A stretch of DNA of 64,000 nucleotides from Elsinoe ampelina (GCA_010093995.1 ML992510.1:323504-387503), one strand, 5' to 3'. Positions 1 to 41,817 are shown, counted from the stretch's first letter. A program made the numbers and translations. Notes: generated by a model not told the origin, from the letters alone.

Positions 1-34
1 GTCTAGTACTATAGCGTAGATACAATTTTAGCTT

Positions 35-547
35 TAGTCCGCCGACGCTATATAATAGCTTAGTCCTATTAGCTCTACTACGAATTATAGTAAATAAGAA
101 CTAAACTAAGTAACGAGGTAGAAACGATAGCCTATAGCTAGTATAGAGTGTCCTTCTCTCTTTGCCTACTATATAGTATAGCATAGCGGATAATCCTCTT
201 AGTCTCTTTACTAACCTTAACTCTTAACCTCTAGCACGTAGAATAGACAGTAATAGTAATAGTAGGCTCGATAGCGACGTATATAAGGAAGAGAAGGGCA
301 TAGACAAGGTTATAATAGGAGGTATACACGAGAAAGAGTAAGTAATTACAGCAAGTATAACTAGTAGCACGTCTATAGGGTAGAGTACTAGGAGGTTATC
401 CTTATCTAGTAGAGCTATATCTAATTATACTACGTTCGAGATAGTAACTAGTATACTAGCTAGTAGCGAGGAGTTAGTAATAGACATAGTTTATCCTTAG
501 TTTATATTAACTAATCTTGTCTAGATCTCCCTAAGTCTATAATATAT
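35..547 (+). repeat. Direct repeat copy 1 (ungapped match to 7387-7899)
   Basis: Offset is 7352 with no gaps. Positions 149-547 differ almost only by transitions; 35-148 is more diverged and includes transversions. Confidence 0.95.
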
Positions 548-920
548 CCTTCGCCCCGAGCGATTAATAAGATATAGCTTAGCTAGAGACTCTCGGCTCG
601 GCGCTCTAACGTTTAATAAAAGGCAAGCTACTAACTTAGATAGATAATTTTAATTCGAGTTAGGTCGTTATAGTAGAAGCGCCTTCTAGTAGGATACACT
701 TACTATAGACTACTAGCCTCTATACAATGTTCTAATAAATCTACTTCTACTTACGTAAGGGTACTAAAGATATGTCTAAGTTATACACGCGAAGGCTATA
801 GTAGTCTAATTAATAGCAAAATAGTGTTTGCTAGTAGGAAGCTTACTCGGCTTAAATTTAGTAGTGTAAATTGTCGCTTTACTCTATCTCTAGCATGTTA
901 TATATAGCAGTAGTAGAGGG

Positions 921-1120
921 CAGCTAGTAGGGGACGGCTAGTAGTTTATTATATCGAACTAATAATTTCTTAGTTCTCTCTCTCGAAGTTTAAAAATAAC
1001 TTAAAATTTTAACCTAACTATAGCTAGTAGGGAATAGCTAGTAGTTTATTACGTCGAACTAACAATTTCTTAGTTCTCTCTCTTAAAGTTTAAGGATAAC
1101 CTAAAATTTTAACCTAACTA
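921..1120. repeat. 100-bp tandem duplication (2 copies)
   Basis: 921-1020 and 1021-1120 both read (c/t)agctagtaggg...aaaattttaacctaacta and differ by transitions. Confidence 0.95.
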
Positions 1121-2945
1121 GATTAAGCACTCCTCGGAACTTAATTACATAATGCTATCTAATTATATTCTTCTCTAAAGTTAGGTATTATATATTTAGA
1201 GACTTATAATCTTTATAGTATTATAAACGCGTTATAAACCCTGTTTATAGCGATATAACTACATCGTAGATACGATTTACTATAATGCCTTAGTTCGCGC
1301 CCTCTACTTATACTAACCTAAATATAGGCGTTAGTGTCTCTAGTATAACCTTTTCTCTCCTCTCTATCTAACCTCGATAATAGCTAGCTATCTATTATAG
1401 CGGATCCCCTACCTAGTATACTATAATTATCTATTGCTATATATATAATAGCAACTCTAATATTTACTCCTATATCGCTGTCGCTACTACTTCTAATAGT
1501 ATTCTTTACACCGGCTATATCGTGTTTATAGGATTAACTACTACTAGTACCTAGTAGTTACGCCGGAGTAAATCTATTATAGTATACCTCTCTATCTTAC
1601 CTACTACGCCGCTATAGGCTTAAGGGTATATAAGAAGACTCCGATACTTCTTTCTCTCTCCTTACTACCGCTACCCTCTATAGCTTCCTTTCTACTAGCT
1701 ACGTATTATTAGTAGGACTAGCTACTGTCTCTACCTAGTAGCTACAACTAAGCAAATCTATCGCAGAGCATCTCTCGATCTTATAGATAGCACTACTAGG
1801 GGTTCTAGCGTACATAAAGAGAGTAGAGAAGCTAGTATCTACCGGGGATTACCTGCCTTATAGTATAAGAATATCAAGGAGAGAATTATAGAGGAATAAC
1901 TAGTATAACAAAAAGGAAGAGATAGAGGAATATTGCAGGTAAAGATATATCTACTACCTCCTACTAGATAGTAGCTTACTATAAAGAGCGTCGTAGGCGA
2001 AGCTATACTAGTAGCGTCCTCTCTTGCTATTGCCTTCCTAGTAGAGCTAGGTAAGGAATAAAGCGTATTTATAATTATATAGAATATACTATTAACTGCC
2101 TATTCTACGGAATATATAGTCTTTACTCTACTCTACTACTCGATTCTATATGTAGTAATTATAAAGTCTAGATAATTAGATAGTAGTATATTACTTTCTT
2201 TATTCCTTTACTAGCATCTATAAGCTATACTATATGCTATATATACTATGCCCTTTATTCCGCTATAGGCTGCTAACTACCTTCTATTTATGTTCTATTA
2301 CTATTGTCCTTCGTATATAAATACTAGTTTCGCTATTAAAATATTATTTAATTATTTTACGTTAACTACTACTATATTTCTTCTATTTATTAGACTATTA
2401 TCCCTTAAGATCTACCCTAAACATAACGATAGTATTCTTAGTATATACGGCATATAAAATAAAAGGTAACTAAGTATATAGACTATAGTTACTCTTAGTT
2501 TAGTGTCTAAACTAAGTAATTTACTATTATATATATACTATATCTAGTATACTACTACGTGCTTAGTTTAGGGCCCGACCTAAGTTAACTAAATTTAGGT
2601 TACTTCTCTCCTTAATTGCTTTAGTTTACCTTTGTTTATACTCTCTTATATATAAATAAATAACTTATGTAGCTCTCTAGTATTTCTTTAACCTCTTTAA
2701 CTTCTCTTTTAAGCGCTCTTTACTTAAATATCTCCTCTTTAGTTAAGTCTTAGTTAGGCATATATTACGAAGTATATAGACTTACTATATTAACAAATTC
2801 TCTCCTTAATTCTTCTAAACTTATAAATACGTAATACCTTTATAGAATCTCTTCTTTAACATCTACTATACCTACTTAACCTATTTATTAGATATTATTC
2901 TAAGCTTTATTTGTAGTATATACTAAGCTTACGGACGTACGTAAT

Positions 2946-5900
2946 ATGTCTAAGAATTAGCCTAATAGCGCTAGTATAGCTACTAATAACATTCTACTCT
3001 ATAAAAGACCTCCTATAGAAATTTAAGTATAGCTTAATAAAAACCTTAAGATTAAGAGATTCTTCCTTAAATTCTTTAACTAGGACAACAACTAGTACGC
3101 TGCTATACGTATAAGAGCGTAGGAAGAATATAAGAATACCTACATAGTTCTAGAACTTAAATATAAGGAACCTTAGGACAGCAACATTAATATAACTACG
3201 ATTATAGACAACATCAAAACTTCCCTACGATACTCTTAGAATAACTATACAAAGATCTTCTTTTAAAGACTACACTATTAAGACTAAGACTAGTTTAAGA
3301 GGAACGTTAGAAACTATAATAATATATCTAGTTATAATGTTATTAAAGATTTTGTCCTTACTATTAAGGCGTAAGAGCTTAGGAATAAGAAGAATTAGAC
3401 TAAAGCAGATAAGAAGGCTTATCCTAAGAAGTATATTAGAAAGCGCCTCTCCGCTACCTAGTTTAATAGCGGACTCTCCGAAAGATTAGAGACTTCTATA
3501 CTTAGTAGCAGACTTATAAGTATAGATATTAATCACTACACTAGTTAGCCTATACATTAGTAGTAAATACTAGAAGATATGTCTTATCTAGTCTAGAGTA
3601 TTATCGATAAAACTATTATTGACCTTATAATTGTTAAGTAATTAGACATTAGCCCGGGCGTAATTATAAAGAGAGAATGTTTGTGTTATTTATAGGCGTT
3701 TAGTCTAAGAATTTTAAGGTTATATCTAGGGGATTATAATCTAAACGTATATAGCCTTAACAATATTAGGCTATTCCTAAAGGAGAAGAAGTTAGTTAGT
3801 AATAATATTATCCTTATATAGATAGATTATATAGAGCTATATAACATCCTACCTATCTTAGACAACTACGACCTACGTGCTACTATAATTAACTATGTTA
3901 ACTCCTTAGTCGAAGGTAGTAATATAATTTTTGTCTATCTTATGCCTAGTATAGATCTAGTTAAGAAGCTCCCCGAAGAAGTACTTTATAAGTTTAATAC
4001 TTAGTTTAACTTAGGTATATACTAACATACTTAGTTAACTCTCTTTAGTATTATAATAGTTAGAAGCTATCGACTCTAGTCTAGAAGGAAGAGGAAGAGG
4101 AACCTCTAGCCCTTCTATCTCTAGCTAAGCGCCTACTACTACGTAAATCTATCTCTAAGAAGTAACCTAGCCCTCTACTACCTAACGAGAATAATACTAC
4201 TATTGACTATTATTCTACTCGGGTAATAGAAGACAAATACTATAAGCAATGCCGAGACAGCAATTAGTATCCCTTTATAATTATACCTAGTAAGGAGTAA
4301 GTAAGGTACTATATTCCGTTAGTCCCTAAGATACTATCTATACCTATCTTAGCGCTTATAACTTATATATTTAATAAGACTCTTAGTAGCTCGGACTTTG
4401 TTAAACTTTATACTATAAACAACAACGATAATAAGTAAACTAGTAATAATCTAGCTAACTAAAGCTTTATCCCTATAGGCACTAGAATCAATTACTAGTC
4501 TAAAGAGTTCTAGGAGAGAGTCTATAACTTTATAGGCTTTAAGAAAGATATTTACTTACCGAACGCTAGTATATAGTGTTTTAGTTAGAATAAGAAGTAT
4601 CTAGTCGAGGTAGTATAGATATACTTAGCGCTTATTACACTTAAGAAATACCTCGAAGGCTACCTAGTATTTACGTTTATATATAAGATAGGATTTAGAA
4701 AAACTCTAATAGGACTCTTCTTTCTCTTACTAATTTAGAACTTAAATAAAAAAGTTATCTAGGATACTAACTATGCTACTATACCTAAGGACAAGTAGAG
4801 TAAGTACTAGAAGGTAAAGACACTAGTTAATAAGCTATAGCTAGATATCGCTTCTATAGATACTATTAGCTATAATCTAATTATTAGCGGATTAAACGTA
4901 ATAAAATAGTAGGCATAGGAGACACGGAAGTTTATACCTAATATAAAGGTCGTTCTATACTAGAGGAGAATATTCTAAGCTATATAAGAACATAAGTATA
5001 GCGACGTATATAACATAGACACTTTAATTCGCAAAGAGGATCTACCTATAGGCTACTACTAATAGGAGTCTTAGCTAATAGATAAGTCTAGTAAGCCTAT
5101 TAACACTATTATAGTCTTATAACTAGTCGATATGTATAAGCGACACCCCTAGACCTTATAGATAAATAATTAGTTCTTCTTTACTACTTGTAACACTATA
5201 ATCTACTACTTCCTTAGTAAGAACAACGTAAATACTAAGGATTAGAACTTTGTTCCTAAGGGACAAGAGAGAAAGCTAGGGTCTACGCCTATAAACTAGA
5301 CCGCTGTTATCTTTAATAAGTTCTATTAGGTCACTAGCTAGAAGACGCAGACCTAGTGTTGTCTAGGAATGCTACTAGGGAGGCCTTTTATACTAGGTAT
5401 AAGTAGGATACTATTTATTAAGTGCTTAAACGTAGTAGCGTTCTTAATAGTAGCTATATATAAGGACTTTAGATTAGAAAAGCTTAATATAAATAGAAGT
5501 AGAATAGGAGAATTTAATAAGAACTACATCTATAAATCTAAGTAGGAGCTAACTAAGGCTAAGAATAACAAACGTTAAGTAACACTAAAGATAACACTAG
5601 ACAAGACTTAATAAGCTATCGCTAACAAGCTTAACTTCTAAATAGTATCGGACTATGCCTTCGTAATTAACAAATAGTATAAGGCAAATAACGACCCTAG
5701 TAAGTTTAATAAAAAGAGAAGTATATAGTTTATAGAAGAGATTATAGTAACAGTTAGCAAATAGGGTACTATCCTTACGAACATTCTTATTAAGATAAAC
5801 GTAAACTACATCTAGAAACCTTTTAATACTACTCCTAGTCTGCTAGCTATTAGAGTCCTACTATATTTTACCTTCGACCTAAAGATTACTATCGAGGATA

Positions 5901-6930
5901 AGTATCTTTATAGTCTTATAAATATATAGAAGAAGATTAAACGGAATAAAAATAAGAGTATATAAGAGGTAATTAATAGGTAAAAGGACAAATCTAACAA
6001 GCCCGAAGTAATATTAGAGATAATCCTTAATAAGAAGACTAAGAAGCAAATACTAAGCCTAGTTACGCCGCTACTACTTTTCTCTATGTTCCTTACTCTT
6101 ATAGATATATTCTAGGACAATCCCGCGGTCGTAGAAGAGTTTAGCAACTTTACTATTAAGTTTACCTACAAAATTATATATAACTCCTTAGAGATAGCAC
6201 TATAGTAGTATATAGACAAGATCTACGCTAGTCCTTAGATAAAGGTCCTTCGTAGTGTTATTTCTAAGATTATTAAGTAGAATATCTCCTATTCGAAGGA
6301 GCTAAAGAGGCAAGTAATTGTCTATACGTTTATACTATTAGTGCTAGTAGTTGCTACGACAGTTAGTTTAGTCTATTTAGTCTATTTAGGTTATTACTAA
6401 TAAGGGTATAGTATCTAAAATAGCTCGAGAAGCACCTAGATAGTAAAGCAATTAAGATCGATAAGGATGCTAATATAGTTATTATCTACTATAGAATAAC
6501 ATCTATACCTGCCTATATAGACATTATTAATATAGCTATGTCTAACAATACGTTTATTAAACCTAATAGGCCGGAAGGCTTAAGGATCTTAATTGCTTAG
6601 AGTAGAGCTATTAAGACTAGTCTTAATCTAAACTACTTCGACACTATAATCTTGCTCGATATAGCGTTAGTATTATAATCTGTCCTTTAGTGTCTAGCTT
6701 AGGTCCGTAGGAACATTAAGTCTTAGAAAGCTAACTATATAGAGGCGTTTATAATAAAGCTAATAGCTCTGTTCTATAGGCCTCTAGAATAGCTTAATAG
6801 TAGACAGAGTAGGCCGTCAATAATATAGAAGGTTATCTACGAGGAAATAGAGAAGTAGAGAGTAGAGATCTAGAAACTTTAATAAGCTATAGCGAAGAAG
6901 AACATAATTATTGTAGATAATAATTAAGAT
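2946..6930 (+). pseudogene. RIP-inactivated SNF2-family / SF2 helicase-like gene (boundaries approximate)
   Basis: De-RIP motifs occur in order. Motif I HEMGFGKT (4682-4705) and motif II FVIDE(W/Q)H (5660-5680) share a frame, followed by motif IV-like KRQVIVYT (~6305). Motif V TGLNL (6616-6630) and motif VI QCLARVRR (6688-6711) share another frame. A 50-nt intron at 6362-6411 (gttagt..tactaat..tag) accounts exactly for the frame change. The 5' boundary is a guess (ATG at 2946). Confidence 0.75.
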
Positions 6931-7132
6931 TACTAGATAATAGTCTAACTGTATTACCTAAAAATATAATTCTTTAGTTTAGTAGACTAATTTAGTTTCC
7001 CGTATATGTTAAACTATCTTTTAGGTTACCTAATATAATATAGTATCTAAACGTTTCTTACTTTCTACTATCGCTAAAATTTAGCTAGCTAACTCTAACT
7101 ACAAATTTAGATCTTAAGCGATAAACACGGAC

Positions 7133-10100
7133 ATACTAAGGCAAATTAGTAAATACTTAGCCTACGGGAAGATTATATAATCTAGTAGAGGCCTTATCTA
7201 ACATCTACTATATTACTAGAGGAGAGAGCTACTAATAAGTAACATAGCGTAAGTCTTACTAGAGTAACATAGCGATAGATATCTACGTAGAGACGACGCT
7301 AGTAATAATCCTTGCTTATTTAATAAGGGAGAGCGCTTACTGTCTAATAAAGGCTAACGAGGTAGTATTACTAGTAATATATAATATAGTTCGCTAATGC
7401 TAAATAACTTGCTAGTCTACTTTACTCCGCTACGAATAATAGTAACTAAGAATTGAACTAAACACTAGAGTAGAAACGAAAGTCTATAGCTAGCGAAGGG
7501 TGTCCTTCTCCCTTTGCCTACTATATAGTATAGTATAGTAGACAATCCTCTTAGTCTCTTTACTGACCTTAACCCTTAACCTCTAGCACGTAGAATAGAC
7601 AGTAATAGTAATAGTAGGCTCGATAGCGACGTATACAAGGAAGAGAAGAGTATAGACAAGGTTATAATAGGAGGCACATACGAGAAAGAGTAAGTAATTA
7701 TAGCAAGTATAACTAGTAGTACGTCTATAGGGCGGAGTGCTAGAAGGTTATCCTTATCTAGTAGAGCTATATCCGATTATACTACGTTCGAGATAGCTAC
7801 TAGTATACCGGCTAGTAGCGAAGAGTTAGTTATAGATATAGTTTATCCTTAGTTTACGTCGACTAATCTTGTCTAGATCTCCCTAAGTCTATAACATATA
7901 CACCAACACCAACAATAAACTAAATTACAATTAGTTAGGCAAGACTTAACTAAAGGAAGCCTTTATTAGCGGCATAGACGTAGGTCTTACCTAGTAGCTT
8001 ATAAAGGAGAAACTTAGTAGAGCTACAATTACGTAATTGCTTAAAGACTTACGTATATAACCTCTAGTAGAGAGCCTTAGTTAGCGAACTACGAATAAAC
8101 TAATAGAGAAGATAGAGAATTTAGATATAGGTAGGGGTATTAATAGCTAGTAGACCTCGAGCTTTATACTAAACACTAATCGTAGGCCTAAAAGACATAC
8201 GTTCTAGCATCTAGATATTCTTATAGTAATATGCTTCTTACTTAGCTATTGTAGTTTTGTAGTAGATATAGACTATAGCTTATATAGAGTCTTTATAGAA
8301 GCTATTAAGAGTAAGCCGCTACGACAAGTGTATACTAAAATAGTAAGTAGCGACTAGTAGTAGAACATACAAAAGCGACTTAGAATACTAGGGGCTACTA
8401 TTATTCTATTAATCGTCGCGAGTGATTAGACCTAGGTAATAAACTATTAAGGAGATCTTATAGCATATACTATCTATCTATTATTAGGCAACCTAAAGGT
8501 AGAAGCATATAATAGCAACTACCGGCCGGGGTAGTTACTAATCGGCTTACTTTCTATTATTAAAGATAGTAGTAATATTGTTAAGGAGAAGACCTACTAC
8601 GCTTATATAAAGAAAATCTTTAACACTATTATTAATTACTACTCGAGAGAGGGTAAAATAATCTCTTATACGGATAGAAAGAGGCGAAGGTACTTCCCTA
8701 TACTTACTACTATACCTACGAATTACGCCGAATAGGTTACTATAACTAGTGTAAAGTTACTATATTATTATATAAGTTACCTAATCGGCAAGGACGAAAG
8801 AGAGGACCTAGTAGTTACTACGCTATTCCAAACTTACTACTCTATATAGCAATAATAGCGCTTATAGAGAGAAGTACGTAAGAGTTAGTAGCGGAGCAAG
8901 AAGATAGATATAAGCTCTTAGGTTTATACAGTTAGTTGCTTTGCGTAGGATCTTCCGTATACTAATATTTACTACGTAATAGTACTAGATATTCTATACT
9001 AACTTCTTAAAGGCGTTTTAATACACGTCTTATACTAGACTCGAAAATTGCTCTAGGATTTAATGCCTATATAGAGATTACTACGGTATATAAAGGCTAG
9101 AGAGACTATATAGCGAATAGGCTACTAGCGCTTAGTAAAGGAGATTATACTTAATATTATTAATAAGCGTTTTAATAGTATACTAGTATTTCCTAGCATC
9201 TAACACTTCTTGCACTACTCGGCCGTTAAGTAATAGACAAGTTAAGAGTAGAAGAGTATTATACGCTAGATACTTCTAGTATTTATACTACTACTCGAGG
9301 AGGTTAAGGCGCCTTAAGCTATTAAGTTTATACGCGCACTAGTCGACTTTATATTACTAGTAAACTATAAGACCTATAACAACGATATACTCTAGTATAT
9401 TAACCTTACGCTCTTTAGGATAAACAAGTATAAAGAAACCTTCCGGGCCTATTATAGTAACAGGAAAGAAGAGAGTAACTTTAACTTTCTAAAATAGCAC
9501 TTAATAATACATTTTTCGAAGGCTATTTATAATTTTAAAGTAGTTACTAGCCTCAATTCTAATTATTTAAAGTATAATTATATATGCTTTATTAAGGACG
9601 CCTTTAAACTCACAAATAAGAAGGCTAGATAGGAAGACTAGGTTACTACTTATAACACTAAACTAGCAAACATGTTAGTAGTATTCGATAACCCCTCGAA
9701 GTTAGTTAGGCTATCGGCTACTAAACTAATTAAGATCTAGAGTACGCTAGTCGGCGTAAGCAATATAGTAAACGTTACTTCTTAGTTTAGCTAGCCTAGT
9801 ACTAAGAGGGGGGCTATATAGCGTATAGTAAGAGAACTAAAGACGCTTATTAACATGCTACCTAGGCTATTACTATAGTAAGTAATAGCGGTGTTTGTCC
9901 GCGAGGCTTGTTAAGGTATAGCCGATATAGGCTCTAACTCGAGAACTAAATACTCTAATTAGTTTAACGCCGAACTAGATCCTAATAGACTTAAACTAGA
10001 TTCTTCCTAGGTAAGCAACCTCTACGTTAAGTTCTACTATTCTTTAAAGTGTAGGAAACTATCCGACTATAATCCTAATAATCCTAATACGGACGAATAA

Positions 10101-10670
10101 GACTTTATCTAGTGCATAACTAAATAGTAAAGGATATATAGTAATAAGAGGCGAGACTAGCTCTAGATATAAGAATAAATAACGAATAACGAAGGCACTA
10201 ACGGAGCATTACCTAATAGCCTATAAGGTAAGTTACTAGCTTATATTATGTTTATAATAACTATAGAGGATAGCTTCTAGTCTAGCAGATTAGGCCGGCA
10301 TTAACGCCTATACTACATAGGAGCGCTAGTAGATCTATATTAGCCTACTTAGCTAGATAAAGTAGCTAATTAAGAGCATAGTATAACACTAATTAAGCCT
10401 TAGACAAATCGACGCGCGCGAGCTAGATAGAACACCCTTACTAGTAGGCGTATCTACTCTACCTTATAAATCTACTATAGTATCTATGTCGTGCTAGTAG
10501 ATAAAATAAGACTATATAGCCGGATATACATTAACAATATAGTTGACTTTAATATATATAACATGCTATAGAATAAGTTATAGGAGTCTAAATAGCTCTA
10601 CCTAGCTAAGGCTTTAAAACGAGAGAGGTTAAGATCCCTAGGCGTAGTTAGTAAGTATAGTAGGCATTAA
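7133..10670 (+). pseudogene. RIP-inactivated Plavaka-type (CMC/EnSpm-related) transposase with N-terminal Zn finger
   Basis: De-RIP reading gives N-terminal CSACGK..SSGGLIQHLLHC (~7154-7216) and PLIVASDQTQ..GD..AYAVYLSLGNL (~8406-8495). Further motifs are DYAEQ..GVK (8721), PDILHQLLKG (~8985), QWTGQEQK (~9230) and FNFPKWH..THF (~9480). The three core motifs at 8421, 8721 and 8988 are in one frame. Confidence 0.85.
7387..7899 (+). repeat. Direct repeat copy 2, inside the acidic N-terminal part of the Plavaka ORF
   Basis: Ungapped match to 35-547. Confidence 0.95.
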
Positions 10671-10879
10671 CGAAGCTAGAGTACTCCTTTTATAGCTAGA
10701 ACAATTGTCTCTTATATCGACGGCCTAACGCTTAGGTACACTTAGGTTAACTACTAGACTATGTTAGGTAGGCGAGTTATAATAACTTCCGTAGGTATTA
10801 CTCTAACTAGTTAGTTTACACCTATATATTATTAGGTTAGTCCCTAAACTATATAGGGTTTGCGGCCTAAGGTGCCTTA

Positions 10880-11420
10880 TATAGTTTTTATGCTAAAGAG
10901 TTAGTCTATTCCTTTACTAATTATAATAGCTTAGAAAATTATAGCGAGGCGTTATAGAAGTTAGTCTTTAAGATGCTTAAGACATACCCTAAGTATTTAG
11001 CGACAGTAGTAAAAGGCTTAGGTTAGTAAGTTGTCTTTAGGTTAGTTTTACTAACGGAGTTAGTAGTCTAAGAGAAAAGTTTATTCTCTATAATAAGTTT
11101 ACTAATAAGACTCCGATATAGACGATAGTGCTTTACTCTATTCGCTATTATATTATAGAGATCTACTCGATGCTACTAGAGTAGTTACTAAGGACTTATT
11201 CCTTTCTATCTAACAGACAAGATCTATAATAACACTAGCTTAGAAGACCCGCTAGGGAATATTCTTATTAATCTTTATATATATACTATACGCGGGAAAC
11301 GAGTCGAGAAAGAAGCTACCCTTTAGTACGGCGAGTAGCCTCTTCCTTATCCTCTAAAGCCTCCTCCGTATCTATATAAGTTATAAGTATTTTCTCGTAA
11401 GATTATTAGTATATAATATA
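10880..11420 (+). pseudogene. Degenerate BTB/POZ-associated coding remnant, paralog 1 (boundaries approximate)
   Basis: 11200-11285 de-RIPs to PFHLTDKIYDNTGSEDPLGNILVDLYIY, which is paralogous to 12782-12865. Confidence 0.45.
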
Positions 11421-12289
11421 TGTGCGACAAATTCTATCTATAAGATTGTATACTAGATTATCTTACACGCGCTATTACTATAACTACTACTTAGTAGTAG
11501 TAATAGTAGAGCAGCGGGATATAGTAGGAAAAAGTGTTATTATACTTACCTCCGAGAGAGAGATACTCTCTTTCTCCTCTATACCTTTCTCCTTGCCCTC
11601 CGCTATAGTAAGGTATACTATAACCGAAGCTACTACTACTACTCCCTCTATAACTACTATTGCTTGTATATAGCTACAACTATAAGTTATTACCGGAAGC
11701 TTAGTACGCGTTAGAGTAACCTTATCTTTAATATATAGTAATAAAGTGCCGCGATCTTAACCCGGACACTGCCTCTATTACCTCTCTAACGACTGCTATA
11801 ACTAGCGCTAAGAGCCGGCAAGGCAAGAAGCGTACTGCCTCTACCTTTACTAGTGTCTATAGCTATACTAGCATTAAGCTTAGCAAGGTAGAGGAGAAGG
11901 GTAAGAAGCGGAAGGAGCCTCTTATTATTACTAATTACCTCCTTACTAATAACCTTATAGATAGGTAGTTAGAGTAGATCTTAAACTTCCTAGAAAGAGT
12001 ATTTACTTCTCTACTATAACTGCCTTTAAGCTGTCGTTTAGACTGCTATATCCTTAGTACTATCTTTAGAGCTACTTAGACACTATACTAATGTCTATTA
12101 GACCTTACTTTTCTAGGTAGTCTTTCGTAGCTCTAGAATTATTCTTCTAGTAGGTATACTATTCCGTATTAGTAGACAAGGGATTAGCTTAGCCTAAACT
12201 AAATATCTATTATATTTCCTACACTTGTCCGTGTTAGTGTTAATCTTCTTAGAATAGGCTATAGCCTCGCTACTATAGCTACTATTAAC

Positions 12290-12890
12290 GTGGTATATCT
12301 AGCTCCTATCGTTATTCTCTTTCTACGTCACTAACAACTTCTAAGTACTAGAATAGGTCTATAGGTATTTATACTTAATGTTGTAACTATGCTTAGCTAT
12401 AATAATTAAGTTCTTCTTAGGAAAAGCTTCCTTGCATCTATAAGTCTAAGTTATAAATGCCCCTCTATAAGCTTATTTTACATTGTCGACGATATAGGCC
12501 GCTAGATAGTAGAACTTATAGACTATAGAGTAATAGAGGTGCTTTTTGTTAGTGTTAACCTTTGTCGCTAGCTATATAGTTACGCGAAAGTACTTGTCTT
12601 TAGAGACATCTAACACCTTAATAGATAACTAAGTAGAGACAATAAAATAGAGTTAGAATAAGTATATATTAGTTTAGAGTTTTATGTTATAAGCTAGAAA
12701 ACAAGGCGTATAATGTCTGCTTTCCTATTATAGTAAAAGCGCTTCTATATCGAGCTTCGATAATATAGAGTATACACTTCTCCTCTATCTAGCGGATAAG
12801 ATCTATAATAACACCGGCTTAGAGGGCCCTCTCCGGAAGATACTCGTTGATTTCTATATCTATTCTAGTCGCGGTAAGTAGAGCATTTAT
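12290..12890 (+). pseudogene. Degenerate BTB/POZ-domain protein remnant, paralog 2
   Basis: De-RIP reading gives VH(R)|intron-like|KSFLASVSPSY...VELAD...RWLY and later LADKIYDNTGSEGPLRKILVDFYI. This resembles the VHK..L..SP.F / WLY / IY.NT...PLR..LVD pattern of fungal BTB proteins. Recognised by eye only. Confidence 0.55.
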
Positions 12891-12900
12891 CTAATCTAAG

Positions 12901-12975
12901 GCACGTACGGTGCATTTAACTAAAATTAGGTAGGTACGGTGCGTTTAACTAAATTTAGGTAGGTGCGGTGCGTTT
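12901..12975. repeat. 29-bp subterminal tandem repeat (~2.6 copies)
   Basis: Units of gtaggtacggtgcgtttaactaaatttag start at 12901, 12930 and 12959 (partial). Confidence 0.9.
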
Positions 12976-13080
12976 ATAGCGACCTAACGTAGTTAAACTT
13001 AGTTTAATATAGAGAAACCTAATATTCTAACTCCCTACGCTTAGGACTTTCGTGATGCTAGCGTTAGGGATTTTATAACG

Positions 13081-16000
13081 TATAGACGTACACTTCTTAG
13101 TAGTAGAGACATATAGTAATATCTTAGTATAATAGTCTATAATTACTAGTACTATATTATAGACGCTACTACCTTACTTGCTTAGTAGTAGGTTAGTAAT
13201 AAAATCTATTATAATTTCTTGCTATAGGTAGTCTAGTATTAGTAGCGTACGTAGCTTACTATAGAGGCGATAGTAGCGCGCCTTATATTTCTAATATACT
13301 TAGTATAACTATACGTAGTTATTAATGTCTTTTCTTATAGTTACCTAGAAGTACTTCTACAAGAGAAGTTTAAGTATCTTATCCTTGCCGAAGTAACTAG
13401 CCTATTCGCCGTTGTAGTATATACGTAGTACCTATACCTTAAGTACGCTATTATTCGAAATAACTAGTAACTCTTTATAGAAGAGAAGATTATCTTATAT
13501 ATTCTATAGCGCTCTACTCTTGTCTCTACTACTCCTTACTTACGAACGTAGCTTTATAATCTTAGAGTCTTATCTCTATAGTAGCTCTACTACTAATATT
13601 AGGTTAGTAGATAGATCTTTAAAGGGATTCTCTCTCGTAGTTGCCGTAACTATAACTCGCTAGGTCGTTATAAGCCCCTAGGAGTTCTTAGAAGAGAAGT
13701 CGCTACTATATAGTATATAGGCGGCCTAGGCCTATCCTAGAGTAGCCTTGTATATAGCGTAGATACGTCTAATAAGCGAAGTAGCTTCCTTAACGTTAGT
13801 AGTCTAGTCCTATATACGAAGCTTATTCTAAAGAGTAGAAAGGAGATATAATACCTCTTACTCTTCTACTACGTAGTTAGGGCGCCTTAAGAGTATATCG
13901 GCTAGGTTCCTCGTGCCTAGCTAATGCTCTATTATAAAGTTAAAAGTAGCAAGGAAGGTAGCCTAGTAAGCTTATTAGCCGTTTAGCTATTTTAGCTTTA
14001 TAAATCCTTAGAGATTGTTATAGTTAGTAAGTACTTAAATTATATACGAGACACCTTTAAGGTAGTATTACTATTACTTAAATATATATATAATTACTAA
14101 TAGCTCTTAGTTATATATCTTGTAATTATACTTAGCTAGGATAAACTTTCTCGACTAAAAGGCAATTAGGTACTAAGCACTATTAAATAGTTAAGATAGG
14201 ATCGCCGCCGCTATAAACTTTAATATATCGCTTTCGATATATAGGGGCAGTATAGAATTATAGTAACGGAGAATAGAGACACGCGTAAAGGCGTCCCTAA
14301 TGTCCTTAAACGCCTACTATTTATTTATGCTCTATATAAAAGAGCTATACTTACGACCTTTAACTAAGCCTTTAAAAAGGCTAGAGAGAGAAGTAATAAT
14401 CTTAGAGTAGTACTATACAAAGCAACAATAGAAGTTTATAAAGCTAGTAAACTACTAGACCTTATAATAACTCTTTAGCCTTAGCTAATTCTTAATTATA
14501 GTTACCTTACTAGGATCTATCGAGACGCCTATAGTAGAGATAATATAGCTAAGGAATTCTACCTCCTTAGTAAAGAATTTATATTTCTTAAGGTTAGTAT
14601 ATAAAGTAAACTTCTATAGCCTTACTAGAATCTTGTATATATAATATATATAGTTCTCTCTCGAATTGCTATAGATAAGAATATTATTAAGGTAAATAAT
14701 ATAGATAGTGTTAACTAGCCTACCTAGCGCCTTATTAATATACGCTTAGAAGGTAGCTAGAGCGTTAGTTAATCTAAAAGGCATAACTAAGTACTTAAAA
14801 TAGCTATAGCACGTGCGGAATATAGTCTTCTACTCGTCGCTATACTTAATAGAGATCCTATAGTAGGCATCCTTTAGATTTAACTTCGAAAACTACTAGG
14901 CTTACCTAAGCTAATTAAGCGTCTTACTAATAAGTAGAAGCGAGTAGCAATTCTTAATAGTTACCTTATTTAAGCCCTAATAATCTACGTATAAGTATAG
15001 GCTACTATCTTTCTTAGGTACAAATAGGATAAGAGTACCTACCTCGCTTATAGAGTGCCTAATTTACTTATTTAATTAAGTAGTCTCGAGATAGTCCTTA
15101 AGTACTATAAGCTCCTTAACTAAGAGGTTATATAAGGGCTAGAATAGAGGTCTCTTACCTAGCTCTAGCTTAATTGTATACTTTACGCCTAGTAGGCGTA
15201 GTAGGTTAGTAATATTCTTATATATAAAGACGTTAAAGAACTCTACGAACTCTAGTAGAAGAGCTAGGTCGCCTACGGCGTAAGTACTCTCCTTAGATAG
15301 AGTCTATACTATAGTATATACTCTCGGCTTGTTCTTAAGGTCCTTTATAAAGTCTTCTAGTTCGTATAAGCGAACTATACACGAGAAGTAGCTATATAAC
15401 TAGTTATCTATAGTGCTATTTATAATTATATATTATCTCCTTCGCTATAGGCGCTCTAAGATAACTAGAGGGCCTAGTCCTAAGTCTATAGCGTAGAAGA
15501 GGCCGATTATCTCCCTAAGGTTACTATAGAAGTCTACTAGACATACGCGAAGCTAGTATATACTATAGTAGAATCCGGCTTACTCTATAAAGAAAGATAT
15601 ACTTAAATACTAAGTATACTTAACTCTTAGCAAATCGTAACAAAGAGTAAATACCTAAGATATAAGATTAACTTCTATATAATTGTCTATAAGGAACATA
15701 TAGTCTTTACGCTCTATAGGCGCTATAATAGCGCTATAATAGAGTAGTAATAGGTAAGCGTTAATAGGAAGAGAAGAAGAGCTTAGTTACGCTCCCTAGC
15801 TAAGCCCTTAAAGTTTACTAGCTTAGAGTTATTAACCTTGTCTCTAGTAGTAACCTAGTGTACTACCTACGACTTATAGTCTCTCTATAAGTACCTCGAC
15901 CTATACTCCGGCTTAATATAACTAGTTTTGCTATAGCTATAGCACTTAGTATTCTTCTTCTACTTGTTAGAGAAACTCCTCTACCTACTAAACTATTTAG

Positions 16001-17218
16001 TAGGTAGGTTAGTAGCTTTATACTCGTAGTAAGCTTAAGAGCTGCTACTAGACTAGTAGTAGTATTCTTCTCGAGGGCTACTATAACTACTATACTTATA
16101 CGAGTAGTTACTTTTATCTTCTTATATAGCGCGCTTACTACTAGTATAGTCTATAGACTTAATATATAAGTCTAAAGAGACTAACTTCTAGCGCGTAGCT
16201 AGAATAGTATAGTGTTTAATAATAGTAGTACGTAGTATAGGCTATAGCTTAGTAAGGAGGTAGTATACTCTCTACTCCTTAGAGTAGAGAGCTAGTTACT
16301 TCTTAAGGGTAGTAAGCTCTAAGGCGAAGGCCTAGATAGATTAGCCCTTACGTTGTTAGGTACCCTTATATACGAGAGTTATATATACTCTATAGTTAAT
16401 AGAGTTATTAACTACGTCTTATATAAACTAGTAGAATTACTCCTACGTATAGTCTTCTAGGCTATCTACGTAGTAGTAGTAGTACTATGTCTTATCTAGC
16501 TCGCCTACGAGAAATATAACTCTATATAGCACCTTCTACTAGTTAGTAGAGTAAGCCTTAGAGGCTAGAGTAAAGATAACCTCGAGATTCTTTAGAAAGG
16601 ATCTTACCTCTTTTAGAGTCTTACTCTAATAGGGATAAGGTTCCCTTAGTTAAGGTTGTTTAGAGAATAGTCTTATAAATAGTCTACTACTGCTATATAT
16701 ACTCTACGTACTAGCGTTACTTACTATAGGCTTAGTAGAAGCATGTAAGTCGTAGTTAAAGCCTTCTTAGTAGTATTCTATATTATATACGTAGTACATT
16801 TACTTAATCTCTTCCTCGAGGCTCTAAGTCTTAAGCTCTAGCTCTAAATACTTACGCTTAGCACGTAGGTATAGTAGCTACTTCGTAAGAGTTTCTTCTT
16901 TCTCTAGGGGAGTCTACTTAATAGAGTCTATCTCTATAACATTGTTTATATAAGGTATAGGCGCCTCGCCGATAGAGTTCTAGTTGTCTATAGAGTCTAA
17001 TAGATTACGACTATAGAGGAGTAATTAGAACTATTAAAGCCTTATATTAAAGCTATATATGTCGTAATATAGAGAACGCCTATCTAACCGAATAGTCCGT
17101 TAGTAGTAGAACTAATTACTGTTAAGCTCTAGGCGTAAGCGCTACGTAGGATATTTAAGTACGTTACGTAAGTGGGACTAGCCGCTACTAAGTGCCGCTC
17201 TAATACTAAGCCCTTATA
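13081..17218 (-). mobile_element. Ty3/Gypsy family A copy, truncated within integrase
   Basis: The reverse complement is colinear with ~49117-53170 (gag, RT with RIPped YLDD at ~14685, RNase H, start of integrase). The 187-bp 5' LTR is at 17032-17218. Homology ends at 13081. Confidence 0.93.
17032..17218 (-). repeat. LTR family A (187 bp), 5' LTR
   Basis: Reverse complement of the LTR at 55537-55723. Confidence 0.95.
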
Positions 17219-17630
17219 TTATGCTAGCTAGAAGCTCTAGTATTATTACATCTATTAGCTAGCTAATAAAGATCTTACTAGTAATTAATCTATAGTAGAT
17301 TAAGGTACTAGGGAGATAGCTATTAATAGTAATAGCTAGTAACACGCTCTACCTCTTACTATGCTACTTTAGCTAGATATCTATATACTTCTTACTAACG
17401 GGCGCCTACCTATACCTCCTCTACGCTGTGCGCTTATTATAAGCCGACTTATTAATGTAAATAATTCTATTAACCGGCTAAAGTATATACCTTCGAGTCT
17501 AATTCGCTCTAAGTATTATATCTCTTTTAGCTACTACCTTCTTAGCTACCTTTCGAGACTACTACTAGCGCTAGATCGTGTACTAGATTATGCTTAAGTA
17601 TACCTAGCGATTGTGTACCTCCCTTAAGAA
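17219..17630 (-). pseudogene. Tc1/IS630-type (DDE_3) transposase fragment, interrupted by Gypsy A
   Basis: Minus strand de-RIPs to RII.IDESA.NERTAWRRYGWAPVG...KRWSVLPAITIDGYL...GSITGEIF (DES at 17445-17453). The reading stops at the Gypsy LTR edge. Confidence 0.75.
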
Positions 17631-18147
17631 GGCTTAAACTTCGTTAAGATAAGTAGTAGAGATATTATTTAGGTAGGCTATTACCTTCTTAGATAGGTTA
17701 GCATAGAAAGAGCTTAGCTATAAAGGACTTACATCTTCTAAGAAAGGGGTAAGAGTATAAGGGCGTAGTATATAAGCTTTAATAGAAGAATAAGAAGTAC
17801 TAAAGAACTTAAGGGATAGTCGAATTTAGCGGATTATAGCTCTAGCTACCTTAGTAGTAGCATAAATAGCACAATTAGTATACTCTTTAGTAAGCAAGAA
17901 CTATATATCTACTAGTTTTAATTTAGCTATCTAATGATTAACTATAATAGTAATAACCTAATTAGAGTAGTATAGTGACTATTATACCTTTTTTTAGCTT
18001 TAATTTATTAGTATTCTCTATGGACTTCTAGCTAGCTAAATTTAATAATAAGAGATTAATACGGAGTATAACACGCTAAGCCTAGAGTGGCTCGGTTAAA
18101 CTTAAAACAACTATATATAAACTCCTCTAAATTAATATATAGCTAAG

Positions 18148-18350
18148 TATTAAGAATATAGCTCTCTCTAGATAATTAGGCTATAAAGTTATATAACCTT
18201 AAGTTATATAATGCTAAGGCCTAGGGATTTATAGCTGTTCTTTCTTCTAGTAGATAGACTTCTTTTAATTAACTAACTCGTCTATTACCTAACTAGTATA
18301 CGATTAGTTCTATATAATATTCTACCCCTAAACGTGCCTTCTACTTAATA
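18148..18350 (+). repeat. Copia-1 5' LTR
   Basis: Matches 23308-23510 with transitions only. Confidence 0.95.
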
Positions 18351-23307: not shown

Positions 23308-23510
23308 TGTTAAGAATATAGCCCTCTCTAGATAATTAGGCTATAAAGTTATATAACCTTAAGTTATATAATGCTAAGGCCTAGGGATTTATAGCTATTC
23401 TTTCTTCTAGTAGATAGACTCCTTTTAATTAACTAACTTGTCTATTACCTAACTAGTATGCGATTGGTTCCATACAATATTCCACCCCTGAACGTGCCTT
23501 CTACTTAACA
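23308..23510 (+). repeat. Copia-1 3' LTR
   Basis: Reads tgttaag...cttaaca, preceded by a purine-rich tract and followed by the TSD. Confidence 0.95.
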
Positions 23511-24057
23511 CTAAGAACTAATAGCAGGTAGAGTTTATAAATTACTTAGGTGTCGTTCCTTTTTGAATTCTATTCTTTTTAGATCACTATTAGACTCGTC
23601 TTGATCGTGGCTATCGATTGAGTTGAAGATCACTTCGTAAATTTAAGTAAGGTGTTCAAGTTGTAGTTTTATTGTTGGTGCTCAGGATTTGCTAGGCTGA
23701 TGTCTTGGCAAAGCTGTAGGGGACCCCTCATGCTCTGGCGGGTTTTACAATCCAGGCAATCGCTACACAACAAAGACAATGCATTATGAAAACATCCCCC
23801 GCACTGCTTTTCACGTATGTAGCAACTATAGGCGCGGCTTATCTGGCCTGGATCGGGCTTTATCCATTGCCTGTTTGTGACACGCACTTCCTGCTCGTGT
23901 AGTGCTCGAGCGGGATCATTCCGCGGACCTACAAATTTTTGGATGACTTCACAAGCCGACTCTGACTGCGACTATGCTCTGTCCTCTCAGATCCACCTTT
24001 CTTCCTATCTGCAGGACCCTGAAACTCCTCATGACGATCAAGTAACACATCTCCACC

Positions 24058-25434: not shown

Positions 25435-25741
25435 TACCCAACTTGCATGGCGGAGTCACTAGGCGTGGGGAAGAGGCAAAGATATGAGATCTGATATAGA
25501 TATGACATCTAAAGTGTATATATAGAAGCTGTGGGTCTTGGTCCTCCTCTTTTCGTGCAAGGAAAGTCGTCCAGTGAGCTTGCGATCATGGTTCCGGTCA
25601 TTCGTGATGTCTATTATATAGGAGAGCTTTTCGTGCGTGGCGTTGTGCGTATCTGACATTCAGATCATCGAGTCAAAAGAAAAGGCTGATTGGGTATAAT
25701 AAATGTGCAAGAACGGAGTAGTCGTGGCGATGAGGCTGATT

Positions 25742-41623: not shown

Positions 41624-41817
41624 GTTACTTAGTGCTATATAGCTACTAGCTACTTAAAAGGTTAGCTTAGCTATAATTAGGACTTATATACTAAAAGCGC
41701 TAGTATTATACCCTTATAGAGTCTAATATAGTTTATAAGGGCTTAGTATTAGAGTAGCACTTAGTAGTAGCTAGTTCCGCTTACGTAACGTACTTAAATA
41801 TTCTACGTAGCGCTTAC

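What the first reader, a model, noticed from the sequence alone, without database searches (positions are those of the whole stretch)
1..13080. Large composite DNA element: Plavaka transposase travelling with an SNF2-like ATPase and BTB-like genes
Seen: all these genes are co-oriented and equally RIP-saturated, so the whole block was multicopy. It ends in subterminal tandem repeats and a sharp junction inside a Gypsy integrase. Established: Plavaka transposases are fungal DNA-transposon enzymes, SNF2 ATPases remodel chromatin, and BTB proteins are often Cullin-3 adaptors. Inference: this is a >13 kb multi-gene transposon carrying chromatin/ubiquitin-related cargo, possibly to counter silencing. 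The left end is not in the window.
Basis: partly seen in the sequence, partly recalled or inferred. Interest (0 to 1): 0.8.

Follow-up and report, generated by a model that had tools for sequence, protein, structure and literature searches.

The report
RIP-dead giant Plavaka transposon relic
A heavily mutated, dead copy of a large multi-copy 'Plavaka' jumping gene in a fungal genome that probably also carries an SNF2-type chromatin-motor gene, an unusual passenger whose membership of the same mobile unit is not yet proven.

Summary
The observation largely holds. Window 1-13080 is uniformly RIP-mutated and every part of it is multi-copy in the source organism's reads. It ends in a 29-bp x3.2 tandem repeat. 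At 13080/13081 it abuts a Gypsy element cut inside its integrase.

A Plavaka transposase relic is certain (PF18759, E 1.8e-23, nt 8178-9029, + strand).

The SNF2-like gene is invisible to Pfam, to PDB phmmer and to a 1.84-billion-protein phmmer search. There, 18 of 24 covered universal SNF2 invariants are RIP-compatible, including Walker A, DE and TxTP. Two real false positives gave 8 of 14 and 10 of 24, and 180 shuffles gave at most 11. The alignment sits in frames that a RIP-invariant purine/pyrimidine codon measure independently calls coding.

BTB found no support, although that stretch is coding-like.

- a 513-bp internal direct repeat (35-547 = 7387-7899);
- coding-like segments on the minus strand;
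- a right terminus that is not canonical for Plavaka.

The left end is not in the window, so "one >13 kb transposon" stays likely but unproven (about 0.55). The anti-silencing role is speculation. Giant Plavaka elements with chromatin-related accessory genes are already known in red algae, so this is a new variant of a known kind.

The parts
35..547 (+). b': first copy of a 513-bp direct repeat. It duplicates the presumed 5' coding part of the transposase gene.
   Evidence: blastn: 35-547 = 7387-7899, 87.8% over 515 columns. There are 53 transitions and 14 transversions. Coding-like in frame +3: 7.8 bits against -13.2 and -12.8 in the other two frames.
922..1120 (.). 100-bp tandem repeat, 2 copies
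   Evidence: TRF: period 100, 88% matches. Copy-number variants are seen in other copies (joint 1120->1029, both runs).
900..3000 (-). Coding-like relic(s) on the minus strand, family unknown
   Evidence: RY-codon coding measure: 900-1900 scores 15.5 bits and 1800-3000 scores 11.9 bits in one minus frame each. All + frames are negative. No Pfam hit at E<=0.1.
3003..4082 (+). Coding-like ORF relic in frame +3. It may be a separate gene or the N-terminal part of the SNF2-like protein.
   Evidence: RY-codon measure: 20.5 bits over 360 codons, against -5.6 and -28.3 in the other frames. Pfam gave no hit at E<=10. PDB phmmer gave 0 hits at E<=10.
4082..6900 (+). SNF2-family ATPase-like gene relic. 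Frame +2 runs to about 6100-6500, then frame +1.
Motifs:
- motif I (Walker A), about 4676-4705
- motif Ia, 4841-4966
- motif II (DExH), 5291-5332
- motif III (TxTP), 5711-5830
- putative motif V, 6511-6660
   Evidence: RIP-aware profile alignment: 34.3 bits in frame, covering columns 25-326. 18 of 24 covered universal invariants are RIP-compatible. Controls gave 8 of 14 and 10 of 24, and 180 shuffles gave at most 11. Coding measure: +2 4082-6100 scores 30.5 bits and +1 6250-6900 scores 8.8 bits. Negative in Pfam, PDB and the 1.84e9-protein phmmer search.
7387..7899 (+). b: second copy of the 513-bp direct repeat. It lies between the SNF2-like gene and the Plavaka domain and is coding-like, so it is probably the 5' part of the transposase ORF.
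   Evidence: RY measure: frame +2 scores 9.6 bits against -13.0 and -11.2.
7900..10400 (+). Plavaka transposase relic, frame +3. The PF18759 domain is at nt 8178-9029.
   Evidence: Pfam PF18759: E 1.8e-23, 83.7 bits, profile positions 38-321 of 325. Confirmed in two of the 51 tiles at 2.6e-22 and 5e-22. Coding measure: 9030-10400 +3 scores 9.0 bits.
11205..11298 (.). 94-nt direct repeat, first copy. The partner is at 12784-12877, just before the terminal tandem array.
   Evidence: 77% identity.
11700..12800 (-). Coding-like stretch on the minus strand near the right end, family unknown
   Evidence: RY measure: 14.7 bits in one minus frame. The + frames score -13.9, -20.4 and 6.1.
12883..12976 (.). 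Subterminal tandem repeat, 29 bp x 3.2. The units are partly self-complementary.
   Evidence: TRF score 118 and family D2. Self-inverted match 12903-12973 scores 42 against a null maximum of 35.5. A copy-number variant is seen in other copies (joint 12974->12938).
13067..13080 (+). Right terminus of the block, ...GGGATTTTATAACG
   Evidence: Read directly. Similarity to Gypsy copy B begins at 13081.
13081..17218 (-). Gypsy LTR-retrotransposon copy A, truncated inside its integrase. This is the flank, the target of the insertion.
   Evidence: Pfam: RVT_1 1.5e-14, RT_RNaseH_2 1.7e-13, Integrase_H2C2 0.0014 at residues 1320-1374 of 1440. 87% identical to 53171-49112.

Best explanation
Window 1-13080 is the right-hand 13 kb or more of one RIP-inactivated copy of a large, multi-copy Plavaka-family (CMC/EnSpm-related) cut-and-paste DNA transposon in an ascomycete. 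It was inserted into the integrase region of a Gypsy retrotransposon.

Shown:
- a Plavaka DDE-transposase relic;
- uniform RIP across the block;
- multi-copy status of every part of the block;
- a subterminal tandem repeat;
- the exact junction with Gypsy.

Supported but not proven: upstream of the transposase and on the same strand lies the relic of an SNF2-family ATPase gene. It is preceded by a further coding-like ORF of unknown family. Two or three more coding-like stretches lie on the other strand.

Inferred: all of these travelled as one unit mobilised by the Plavaka transposase acting on termini, of which only the right one (...TTTTATAACG) is visible. The subterminal repeats would serve as protein-binding sites, as in En/Spm. 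A role for the SNF2-like gene in opening or protecting the element's chromatin is only an analogy with the TET/JBP, SET/methylase and VANC accessory genes of other transposons. After amplification to many copies, RIP (C>T and G>A at CpA/TpG) destroyed every reading frame, so this copy does nothing now.
For: - Plavaka: PF18759, E 1.8e-23.
- RIP: indices are uniform over the 9 sub-blocks. Per kb, the block's substrate index averages 0.268. The other RIPped repeats of the window average 0.149 (Mann-Whitney p 1.3e-6). The left half does not differ from the right half (0.260 vs 0.277, p 0.63).
- Multicopy: 13,255 and 9,693 diverged contigs were laid, cover is even in all bins of 1-13080, and 96.7% of differing places are transitions.
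- Junction: it lies inside the Gypsy integrase. The missing Gypsy part is nowhere in 1-13080, so the inserted DNA spans at least 13 kb.
- SNF2: the RIP-aware alignment is colinear over motifs I, Ia, II and III in frame +2. 18 of 24 universal invariants are compatible. Real false positives gave 8 of 14 and 10 of 24, and 180 shuffles gave at most 11. Five negative-control or cross profiles scored 19.8-30.1 against 41.2.
- Frames: the alignment's frames are independently coding-like, including the switch to +1 where the best C-lobe hit lies.
- Packing: the coding-like ORFs at 2850-10400 lie on one strand and are closely packed.
- Precedent: giant Plavaka elements of 17.4-19.1 kb with three accessory genes and tandem repeats (bioRxiv 10.1101/2025.02.11.637652, passages).
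Against: - No left terminus. No inverted partner of the right end exists in the window: the RY-alphabet scan stayed at chance level and the local alignment scored 30.5 against a null mean of 31.6.
- The right end ...ACG fits neither published Plavaka terminus (TGT..ACA or CATCA..TGATG; PMC12730594, passages).
- The 513-bp direct repeat 35-547 / 7387-7899 is not expected in a simple element. It may mark a rearrangement or a nested or tandem arrangement.
- Logan contigs are about 200 bp long and cannot show that other copies keep the same order. The tool warns that summed depth is not a copy number.
- SNF2 is absent from Pfam at E<=10, from PDB, and from the phmmer search of 1.84e9 proteins (0 hits at E<=0.001).
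- The RIP-aware total score does not separate this hit from other RIPped DNA:
  - in-frame, it is 34.3 against 32.1 for a false positive antisense to a Gypsy gag;
  - with frameshifts allowed, it is 41.2 against 35.1 and 35.4;
  - with strict gap costs, it is 29.1 against 29.4;
  - one or more of 274 column permutations (maximum 42.3) reached 41.2.
- The C-lobe taken alone is at the null level (18.7 against a null mean of 18.7).
- Motif spacings are long. Motif I to motif II is about 205 residues in the DP placement, or about 330 in an alternative placement judged by eye.
- Minus-strand coding-like segments show that the block is not a simple co-oriented operon-like unit.
Confidence: 0.55

Rival explanations
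1. Mosaic of at least two independent repeat families. A Plavaka element of about 5.7 kb (about 7387-13080) lies next to, or nested with, a separate multi-copy block carrying the SNF2-like gene (about 548-7386). The 513-bp repeat b'/b would mark the seam, through recombination, tandem duplication or nesting between copies.
For: The sharp-edged 513-bp direct repeat has both of its edges inside the window. Coding-like DNA of opposite orientation lies at 900-3000. No left terminus is seen. An SNF2-bearing RIPped repeat with no recognised transposase is on record in a Dothideomycete: X3X3R8, 26 kb (PMC3017866, passages).
Against: If the Plavaka element ended at 7387, the missing half of the Gypsy integrase should lie at 7386 and leftwards. 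It does not. RIP load does not differ between the two halves (p 0.63), while both differ from the other repeats. No contig joint such as 547->7900 was among the joints listed; only the best supported are printed. Region b is coding-like and continuous with the transposase ORF.
Confidence: 0.3
2. Not a transposon's cargo. A host gene cluster (an SNF2-like gene and neighbours) was amplified by segmental duplication, as X3X3R8 was interpreted, then invaded by a Plavaka element and RIPped. The end at 13080 would be a duplication or recombination breakpoint.
For: The authors read the X3X3R8 precedent as an 'endogenous gene cluster' (PMC3017866). The terminus is not canonical.
Against: The breakpoint falls inside another transposon's integrase, right after a subterminal tandem repeat. 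That is the anatomy of an element end. Thousands of diverged contigs cover the stretch evenly. The phmmer search of 1.84e9 proteins found no close homologue of the SNF2-like ORF in any predicted proteome.
Confidence: 0.1
3. The SNF2 resemblance is an artefact of permissive RIP-aware scoring on AT-rich DNA. The block is then a Plavaka relic plus unidentifiable coding relics.
For: All standard searches were negative. Total scores are comparable with known false positives. The RT positive control reached only 27.6 against a null maximum of 27.3.
Against: 18 of 24 a-priori invariants are compatible, against at most 11 in 180 shuffles and 8-10 in the real false positives. The extended Walker A motif occurs once against 0.1 expected. 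The frames agree with the independent coding measure. The best C-lobe hit lies directly downstream on the same strand.
Confidence: 0.15

Closest known systems
Giant Plavaka elements of red algae (Bostrychia moritziana, Chondrus crispus); bioRxiv 10.1101/2025.02.11.637652, passages read
   Same: Plavaka transposase. Very large size (17.4-19.1 kb there, more than 13 kb here). Several accessory genes with chromatin or DNA-modification flavour. Tandem repeat arrays inside the element. Massive amplification followed by decay.
   Different: The accessory genes there are PAG1 (unknown), PAG2 (N6-adenine methylase + SET) and PAG3 (ParB-like + 2OG oxygenase). Here it is an SNF2-like ATPase plus unidentified ORFs. 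The host is an ascomycete with RIP. Homology of the transposases beyond the Pfam family was not tested.
Fungal Plavaka families A and B, with or without TET/JBP (Kojima 2025, PMC12730594, passages read)
   Same: PF18759 transposase. DNA transposon carrying a gene that could act on silencing.
   Different: Published termini are TGT..ACA (A) or CATCA..TGATG (B), with 2-3 bp target duplications, and the families were reconstructed from Agaricomycotina. Here the visible end is ...TTATAACG. No TET/JBP hit was found. The host is RIP-active. The paper's supplements (Figure S2, Data S1) were not seen.
X3X3R8 repeat of Parastagonospora (Stagonospora) nodorum (PMC3017866, passages read)
   Same: RIP-degraded, multi-copy, multi-gene block in an ascomycete containing Rad5/SNF2-like helicase genes and unknown ORFs. 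It was recognised only after allowing for RIP.
   Different: It is 26 kb, with three helicase genes and a Rad6-like ubiquitin-conjugating enzyme, and some copies are intact. No transposase was reported. The phmmer search found no close relative of the present ORF, so this is not the same family. The additional files were not seen.
En/Spm (CACTA) elements
   Same: Related transposase clade (CMCT). Subterminal repeats next to the end. More than one gene.
   Different: There is no CACTA terminus at the visible end. TIRs and the 3-bp target duplication cannot be tested without the left end. The En/Spm features named here are recalled, except those quoted in PMC12730594.
Starship giant transposons of Pezizomycotina
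   Same: Large cargo-carrying mobile blocks in ascomycetes.
   Different: Starships are moved by a tyrosine recombinase (DUF3435 'captain'; recalled). No such hit was found in six-frame Pfam scans of the block. A DDE Plavaka transposase is present instead.

Membership tests
Plavaka transposon (PF18759; CMCT clade) | Transposase domain above Pfam's gathering score | tested here: met
   83.7 bits against a cut-off of 26.3, E 1.8e-23, profile positions 38-321 of 325, nt 8178-9029 +. Repeated in 2 tiles.
Plavaka transposon (PF18759; CMCT clade) | Termini 5'-TGT..ACA-3' (PlavakaA) or 5'-CATCA..TGATG-3' (PlavakaB) (PMC12730594) | tested here: not met
   The right end reads ...GGGATTTTATAACG. ACG cannot derive from ACA by RIP. 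Only one end is visible.
Plavaka transposon (PF18759; CMCT clade) | Terminal inverted repeats and a 2-3 bp target-site duplication | not testable with these tools
   The left end is not in the window and no genome is held. No inverted partner was found within the window.
Plavaka transposon (PF18759; CMCT clade) | [quoted passage not shown] | not tested
SNF2 family ATPase | SNF2_N (PF00176) / Helicase_C match | tested here: not met
   No hit at E<=10 in 51 tiles of the + strand, nor at E<=0.1 in six frames. PDB gave only E 0.74-1 hits to unrelated proteins. The phmmer search of 1.84e9 proteins gave 0 hits.
SNF2 family ATPase | Conserved N-lobe residues (Walker A LA..GLGKT; P/W/E/F of motif Ia; DE of motif II; T.TP of motif III), colinear in one frame | tested here: met
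   Allowing only C>T and G>A reversal, 18 of the 24 covered invariants are compatible, out of 25 invariants shared by two bacterial SNF2 subfamilies. Controls gave 8 of 14 and 10 of 24, and 180 shuffles gave at most 11. This is a custom test.
SNF2 family ATPase | C-lobe motifs IV-VI | tested here: inconclusive
   The best C-lobe hit (6511-6660, frame +1, motif V-like) lies directly downstream. It scores 18.7, equal to the null mean of 18.7. Motif VI was not recognisable.
BTB/POZ domain protein | BTB (PF00651) match or a related solved structure | tested here: not met
   No Pfam hit at E<=10. PDB phmmer of 3003-4082 gave 0 hits at E<=10. A RIP-aware test was not possible because no reference sequences could be reached.
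En/Spm (CACTA) | CACTA termini; subterminal repeats | tested here: inconclusive
   No CACTA terminus at the right end. A subterminal 29-bp tandem array is present.
Starship | DUF3435 tyrosine-recombinase 'captain' at one end | tested here: not met
   No such Pfam hit in the block. The left end is unseen, and RIP may hide weak domains.

The most novel reading that the evidence does not exclude
An undescribed ascomycete lineage of giant Plavaka transposons that carries an SNF2-family chromatin-remodelling ATPase, plus further ORFs, as accessory genes. This would be the first SNF2 cargo in the CMC/Plavaka clade that my literature searches could find. If so, puzzling SNF2-bearing RIPped repeat clusters such as X3X3R8 in Pleosporales could be cargo of such transposons rather than amplified host gene clusters.
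Probability: 0.4. Interest if true: 0.65.

Novelty: new variant of a known kind. Interest (0 to 1): 0.5.

Why it matters
Transposon-borne genes that act on chromatin or DNA marks are rare. Known examples are TET/JBP, SET/methylase/2OG genes and VANC. They are the clearest cases of mobile DNA fighting host silencing. An SNF2 motor as Plavaka cargo in a RIP-active ascomycete would add a new class of such genes. It would also give a mobilisation mechanism for large SNF2-bearing repeat blocks seen in plant-associated Dothideomycetes.

The case also has a practical side. Standard HMM and sequence searches miss a whole gene in RIP-saturated DNA. Two RIP-invariant devices recover it: purine/pyrimidine codon classes to find the reading frame, and ancestral-codon compatibility at invariant residues. 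This copy is dead, so its direct biological effect is nil.

Tried and rejected
Earlier-findings look-ups were empty.
- The search for homologous proteins on the transposase region (7401-11300, stops read as X): the 8000 candidates scored gave nothing at E<=0.001. The word prefilter fails on RIPped sequence.
- The search of protein representatives on 4082-6820 frame +2: 0 hits.
- tblastn of the three translations against the window gave only self hits.
- Stop-codon density per frame discriminated poorly.
- A RapA-family profile did not find the SNF2 region. It scored 24.2 on the + strand, in a different place, and 30.1 on the - strand.
- The RIP-aware total alignment score was rejected as a sole criterion. 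A 32.1-bit hit at 40148-41218 proved to be antisense to the gag region of a Gypsy element. Frameshift-aware scores of 35-39 arose in Gypsy pol.
- The reading of 35-7899 as an LTR retrotransposon (b', b = LTRs) was rejected. There is no RT, integrase or gag hit inside, b is coding-like, and no target duplication is visible by eye at its edges.
- Search for the left terminus: a 24-mer RY scan and local alignment of the last 300 nt gave nothing above chance, apart from the tandem array's own self-complementarity.
- Literature, by search listing only: 'SNF2 + CACTA + transposase' gave 21 papers, of which the 12 listed showed no SNF2-carrying CACTA or Plavaka element in title or abstract. 'Plavaka' gave 20 papers.
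- Iyer et al. 2014 (PNAS) is not held. Whether it mentions SNF2 next to Plavaka is unknown to me.


Full report
**Setting.** The window is AT-rich (GC 0.26-0.38) apart from a GC-rich island at about 24000-31000. No whole genome is held. Earlier notes of the scan hold nothing on this genome.

**Check of the observation: RIP and copy number.**
- In 1-16000 only one ORF of 60 aa or more survives.
- All nine sub-blocks of 1-13080 have TpA/ApT 1.73-2.20 and (CpA+TpG)/(ApC+GpT) 0.20-0.33. The GC island has 0.60 and 1.22.
- Per kilobase, the substrate index of the block averages 0.268 (sd 0.050). The other RIPped repeats of the window average 0.149 (sd 0.057; Mann-Whitney p 1.3e-6). Its left and right halves do not differ (0.260 vs 0.277, p 0.63).
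- So "equally RIP-saturated" is right. The block also has a RIP history of its own, though this index depends on ancestral composition as well.
- Two public runs of one sample (X1, X2) hold 0.55 and 0.53 of the sampled words. They may be the sample the window was assembled from.
- Laid on 1-18000 at 80% likeness or more, they give 13,255 and 9,693 contigs. Only 3,339 and 1,962 of these are at least 99% alike.
- All 30 of 30 bins are covered. Summed depth is even over 1-13080 (8.0-15.4 thousand in X1).
- In X1, 1,568 of 1,622 differing places are transitions.
- The tool warns that summed depth is no copy number. Thousands of diverged short contigs on 18 kb nevertheless mean that every part is repeated in the genome and that the copies differ in the RIP manner.

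**The right end.**
- TRF finds a 29-bp unit repeated 3.2 times at 12883-12976 (family D2). The array is partly self-complementary. Other copies vary in unit number (joint 12974->12938).
- Similarity to a second Gypsy copy starts exactly at 13081 (13081-17139 = 53171-49112, 87%).
- Copy A lies on the minus strand. It carries RVT_1 (1.5e-14), RT_RNaseH_2 (1.7e-13) and Integrase_H2C2 (0.0014, residues 1320-1374 of 1440), and then stops.
- Copy B runs on past the equivalent point with SH3_Tf2-1 (1e-4) and Chromo (2e-5).
- The junction is therefore inside the integrase. The missing part of copy A has no match anywhere in 1-13080.

**Plavaka.** Six-frame translations with stops read as X gave one Pfam family for the whole block: PF18759 Plavaka, E 1.8e-23, 83.7 bits, profile positions 38-321 of 325, frame +3, nt 8178-9029. 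Two of the 51 overlapping 500-residue tiles of the + strand repeated it.

**SNF2: standard searches all failed.**
- Pfam gave no hit at E<=10.
- PDB phmmer gave 3 hits at E 0.74-1, none of them SNF2.
- phmmer against 1.84 billion representative proteins gave 0 hits at E<=0.001.

**SNF2: the RIP-aware test.** RIP changes only C>T and G>A, so I wrote a profile alignment that allows for it.
- Each observed T may have been C, with probability 0.35 in TpA and 0.08 elsewhere. Each A may likewise have been G. These values were fixed beforehand.
- A column is scored by the posterior-weighted odds.
- The profile has 455 columns. It was built from 28 of the 30 bacterial SNF2 loci fetched for the purpose (L114 and L121 were dropped as unalignable).

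**SNF2: alignment scores.**
- Frame +2 scored 34.3 bits over columns 25-326, nt 4628-6493. The other five frames scored 16.9-23.0, the reversed profile 16.0-24.7, and the same alignment without the RIP model 19.0-22.5.
- The aligned blocks are the SNF2 motifs in order:
  - motif I: observed FIYKIGFRKT for LADDMGLGKT;
  - motif Ia: nt 4841-4966;
  - motif II: observed VIFNKFY for LILDEAQ;
  - motif III: observed LTNIL for LTGTP.
- None of 228 codon shuffles (maximum 33.4) and none of 230 column permutations (maximum 32.85) reached 34.3.
- With frameshifts allowed, the + strand scored 41.2 and the - strand 23.8.

**SNF2: results against the score.**
- At least one of 274 column permutations (maximum 42.3) reached 41.2.
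- Other RIPped parts of the window gave 32.1 in frame, and 35.1, 35.4 and 39.1 with frameshifts. With strict gap costs the block scored 29.1 and another segment 29.4.
- The 32.1 hit (40148-41218, + strand) lies antisense inside a complete Gypsy element. That element has LTRs at 33406-34148 and 41817-42562 and its pol on the minus strand. The hit is a false positive.
- The positive control was a bacterial group II RT profile run on the Gypsy RT. It found the YxDD box on the right strand, but at only 27.6 against a null maximum of 27.3.
- The total score alone therefore proves nothing.

**SNF2: two sharper and independent tests.**

Test 1, invariant residues.
- I defined 25 universal invariant columns beforehand. 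These are residues conserved at 85% or more in both the canonical bacterial SNF2 set and the divergent RapA set.
- The block's alignment covers 24 of them, and 18 are compatible with the observed codons under RIP reversal alone. They include 7 of 8 in L-A-D-..-G-L-G-K-T, W82, E85, F89, D141, E142, T169, T171 and P172.
- The two real false positives reach 8 of 14 and 10 of 24.
- In 180 shuffles the maximum over six frames was 11 (mean 4.1).

Test 2, reading frame.
- Purine/pyrimidine codon classes are unchanged by RIP.
- A log-odds measure was trained on the pol relics of Gypsy A and B. On a held-out third Gypsy pol it picks the right frame (31.2 bits against -55.5 and -22.3). It does the same on the Plavaka domain (7.2 against -9.2 and -6.8).
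- It gives 30.5 bits for frame +2 over 4082-6100 (the other frames score -18.7 and -35.0) and 8.8 bits for frame +1 over 6250-6900. The false-positive region scores -1.2.
- The best C-lobe hit among all six frames, although at null level (18.7), lies at 6511-6660 in that same +1 frame, directly downstream. It reads like motif V (SRAIKTSLNL...DTIILLD).

**SNF2: further controls and verdict.** Negative-control profiles on the block scored 19.8-26.2, and RapA scored 24.2 and 30.1 elsewhere. I put the chance that this is a true SNF2-family relic at about 0.85. Subfamily, C-lobe and exact gene model remain open.

**BTB.** It is clearly coding-like (20.5 bits against -5.6 and -28.3). It has no Pfam hit at E<=10 and no PDB hit at E<=10. 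BTB reference sequences could not be reached, so no RIP-aware test was possible. The ORF may be a gene of its own or the N-terminal part of the SNF2-like protein.

- (i) A 513-bp direct repeat: 35-547 = 7387-7899, 87.8% identical, 53 transitions and 14 transversions. Both of its edges lie inside the window. It is coding-like on the + strand and continuous with the transposase ORF.
- (ii) Minus-strand coding-like stretches at 900-1900 (15.5 bits), 1800-3000 (11.9 bits) and 11700-12800 (14.7 bits).
- (iii) The right terminus ...TTATAACG fits neither published Plavaka terminus.
- (iv) No inverted partner of the right end exists in the window.

**One element or several?**

For one unit:
- at least 13 kb separates the Gypsy junction from any Gypsy remainder;
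- RIP load is homogeneous and distinct from the neighbouring repeats;
- read cover is even;
- the same-strand ORFs from 2850 to 10400 are tightly packed;
- giant multi-gene Plavaka elements are on record.

Against:
- the left end is unseen;
- the internal repeat is unexplained;
- the contigs are too short to show long-range order in other copies.

I give 0.55 to one Plavaka-mobilised unit that includes the SNF2-like gene, 0.3 to a mosaic of two repeat families, and 0.1 to an amplified host cluster.

**Comparison with what is known.**
- Kojima 2025 (PMC12730594; passages) places Plavaka in the CMCT clade, gives the termini and target duplications of its two lineages, and reports TET/JBP as cargo in some fungal families.
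- The Bostrychia preprint (passages) describes giant Plavaka elements of 17.4-19.1 kb with three accessory genes and tandem repeats. It states that in basidiomycete fungi only TET/JBP is known as a Plavaka accessory gene.
- Hane and Oliver 2010 (PMC3017866; passages) describe X3X3R8, a 26-kb RIPped repeat of a Dothideomycete with SNF2-like helicases and a Rad6-like gene.
- Arkhipova and Yushenova 2019 (PMC6431247; passages) cite 16-20 kb En/Spm families with 4-5 ORFs.
- I found no report of an SNF2 gene carried by a CACTA or Plavaka element in the listings of two searches: 21 papers of which 12 were listed, and 31 of which 15 were listed. This rests on titles and abstracts only. Iyer et al. 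2014 is not held. The supplements of these papers were not seen.

**Verdict.** This is a real, well-delimited right end of a dead, multi-copy Plavaka-family element. It probably carries an SNF2-like accessory gene, which makes it a new variant of a known kind. The anti-silencing idea is untested.

Noticed in passing
window 24000-31000: A GC-rich (0.48-0.61), un-RIPped gene island lies between RIPped AT-rich repeat blocks. It holds a D123/CDC123 gene at 24058-25434 (+) (PF07065, E 6.5e-98) and an 893-aa ORF at 25660-28341 (-) with no Pfam family.
   Followed up: partly
window 31168-31702: A run of N (assembly gap) at the right edge of the GC island.
   Followed up: no
window 33406-42562: An apparently complete Gypsy element on the minus strand. 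LTRs at 33406-34148 and 41817-42562 are 90% alike, and pol similarity runs 40003-36314. A third LTR-like copy lies at 48914-49114.
   Followed up: partly
window 18145-18348 and 23305-23508: A 204-bp direct repeat, 94.6% identical, 5.2 kb apart, flanks the most AT-rich stretch (GC 0.26-0.29). It may be the LTR pair of another element.
   Followed up: no
window 42657-44915 and 55719-57977: A 2.26-kb direct repeat, 91.5% identical, part of the nested Gypsy landscape to the right.
   Followed up: no
window 12583-12781, 12418-12491, 1400-1477, 11462-11512: Contigs from other copies skip 199, 74 and 78 bases at these places, and one contig joins opposite strands at 11462/11512. These are indel and inversion variants among copies of the family.
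   Followed up: no
window 40148-41218 (+): Method note. RIP-aware profile alignment gave a 32-bit 'SNF2' false positive antisense to a Gypsy gag region. Total scores from such permissive scoring need real-sequence controls, not only shuffles.
   Followed up: yes
window 11205-11298 and 12784-12877: A 94-nt direct repeat (77% identical). Its second copy sits immediately before the terminal 29-bp tandem array. It may be a repeated subterminal module.
   Followed up: no
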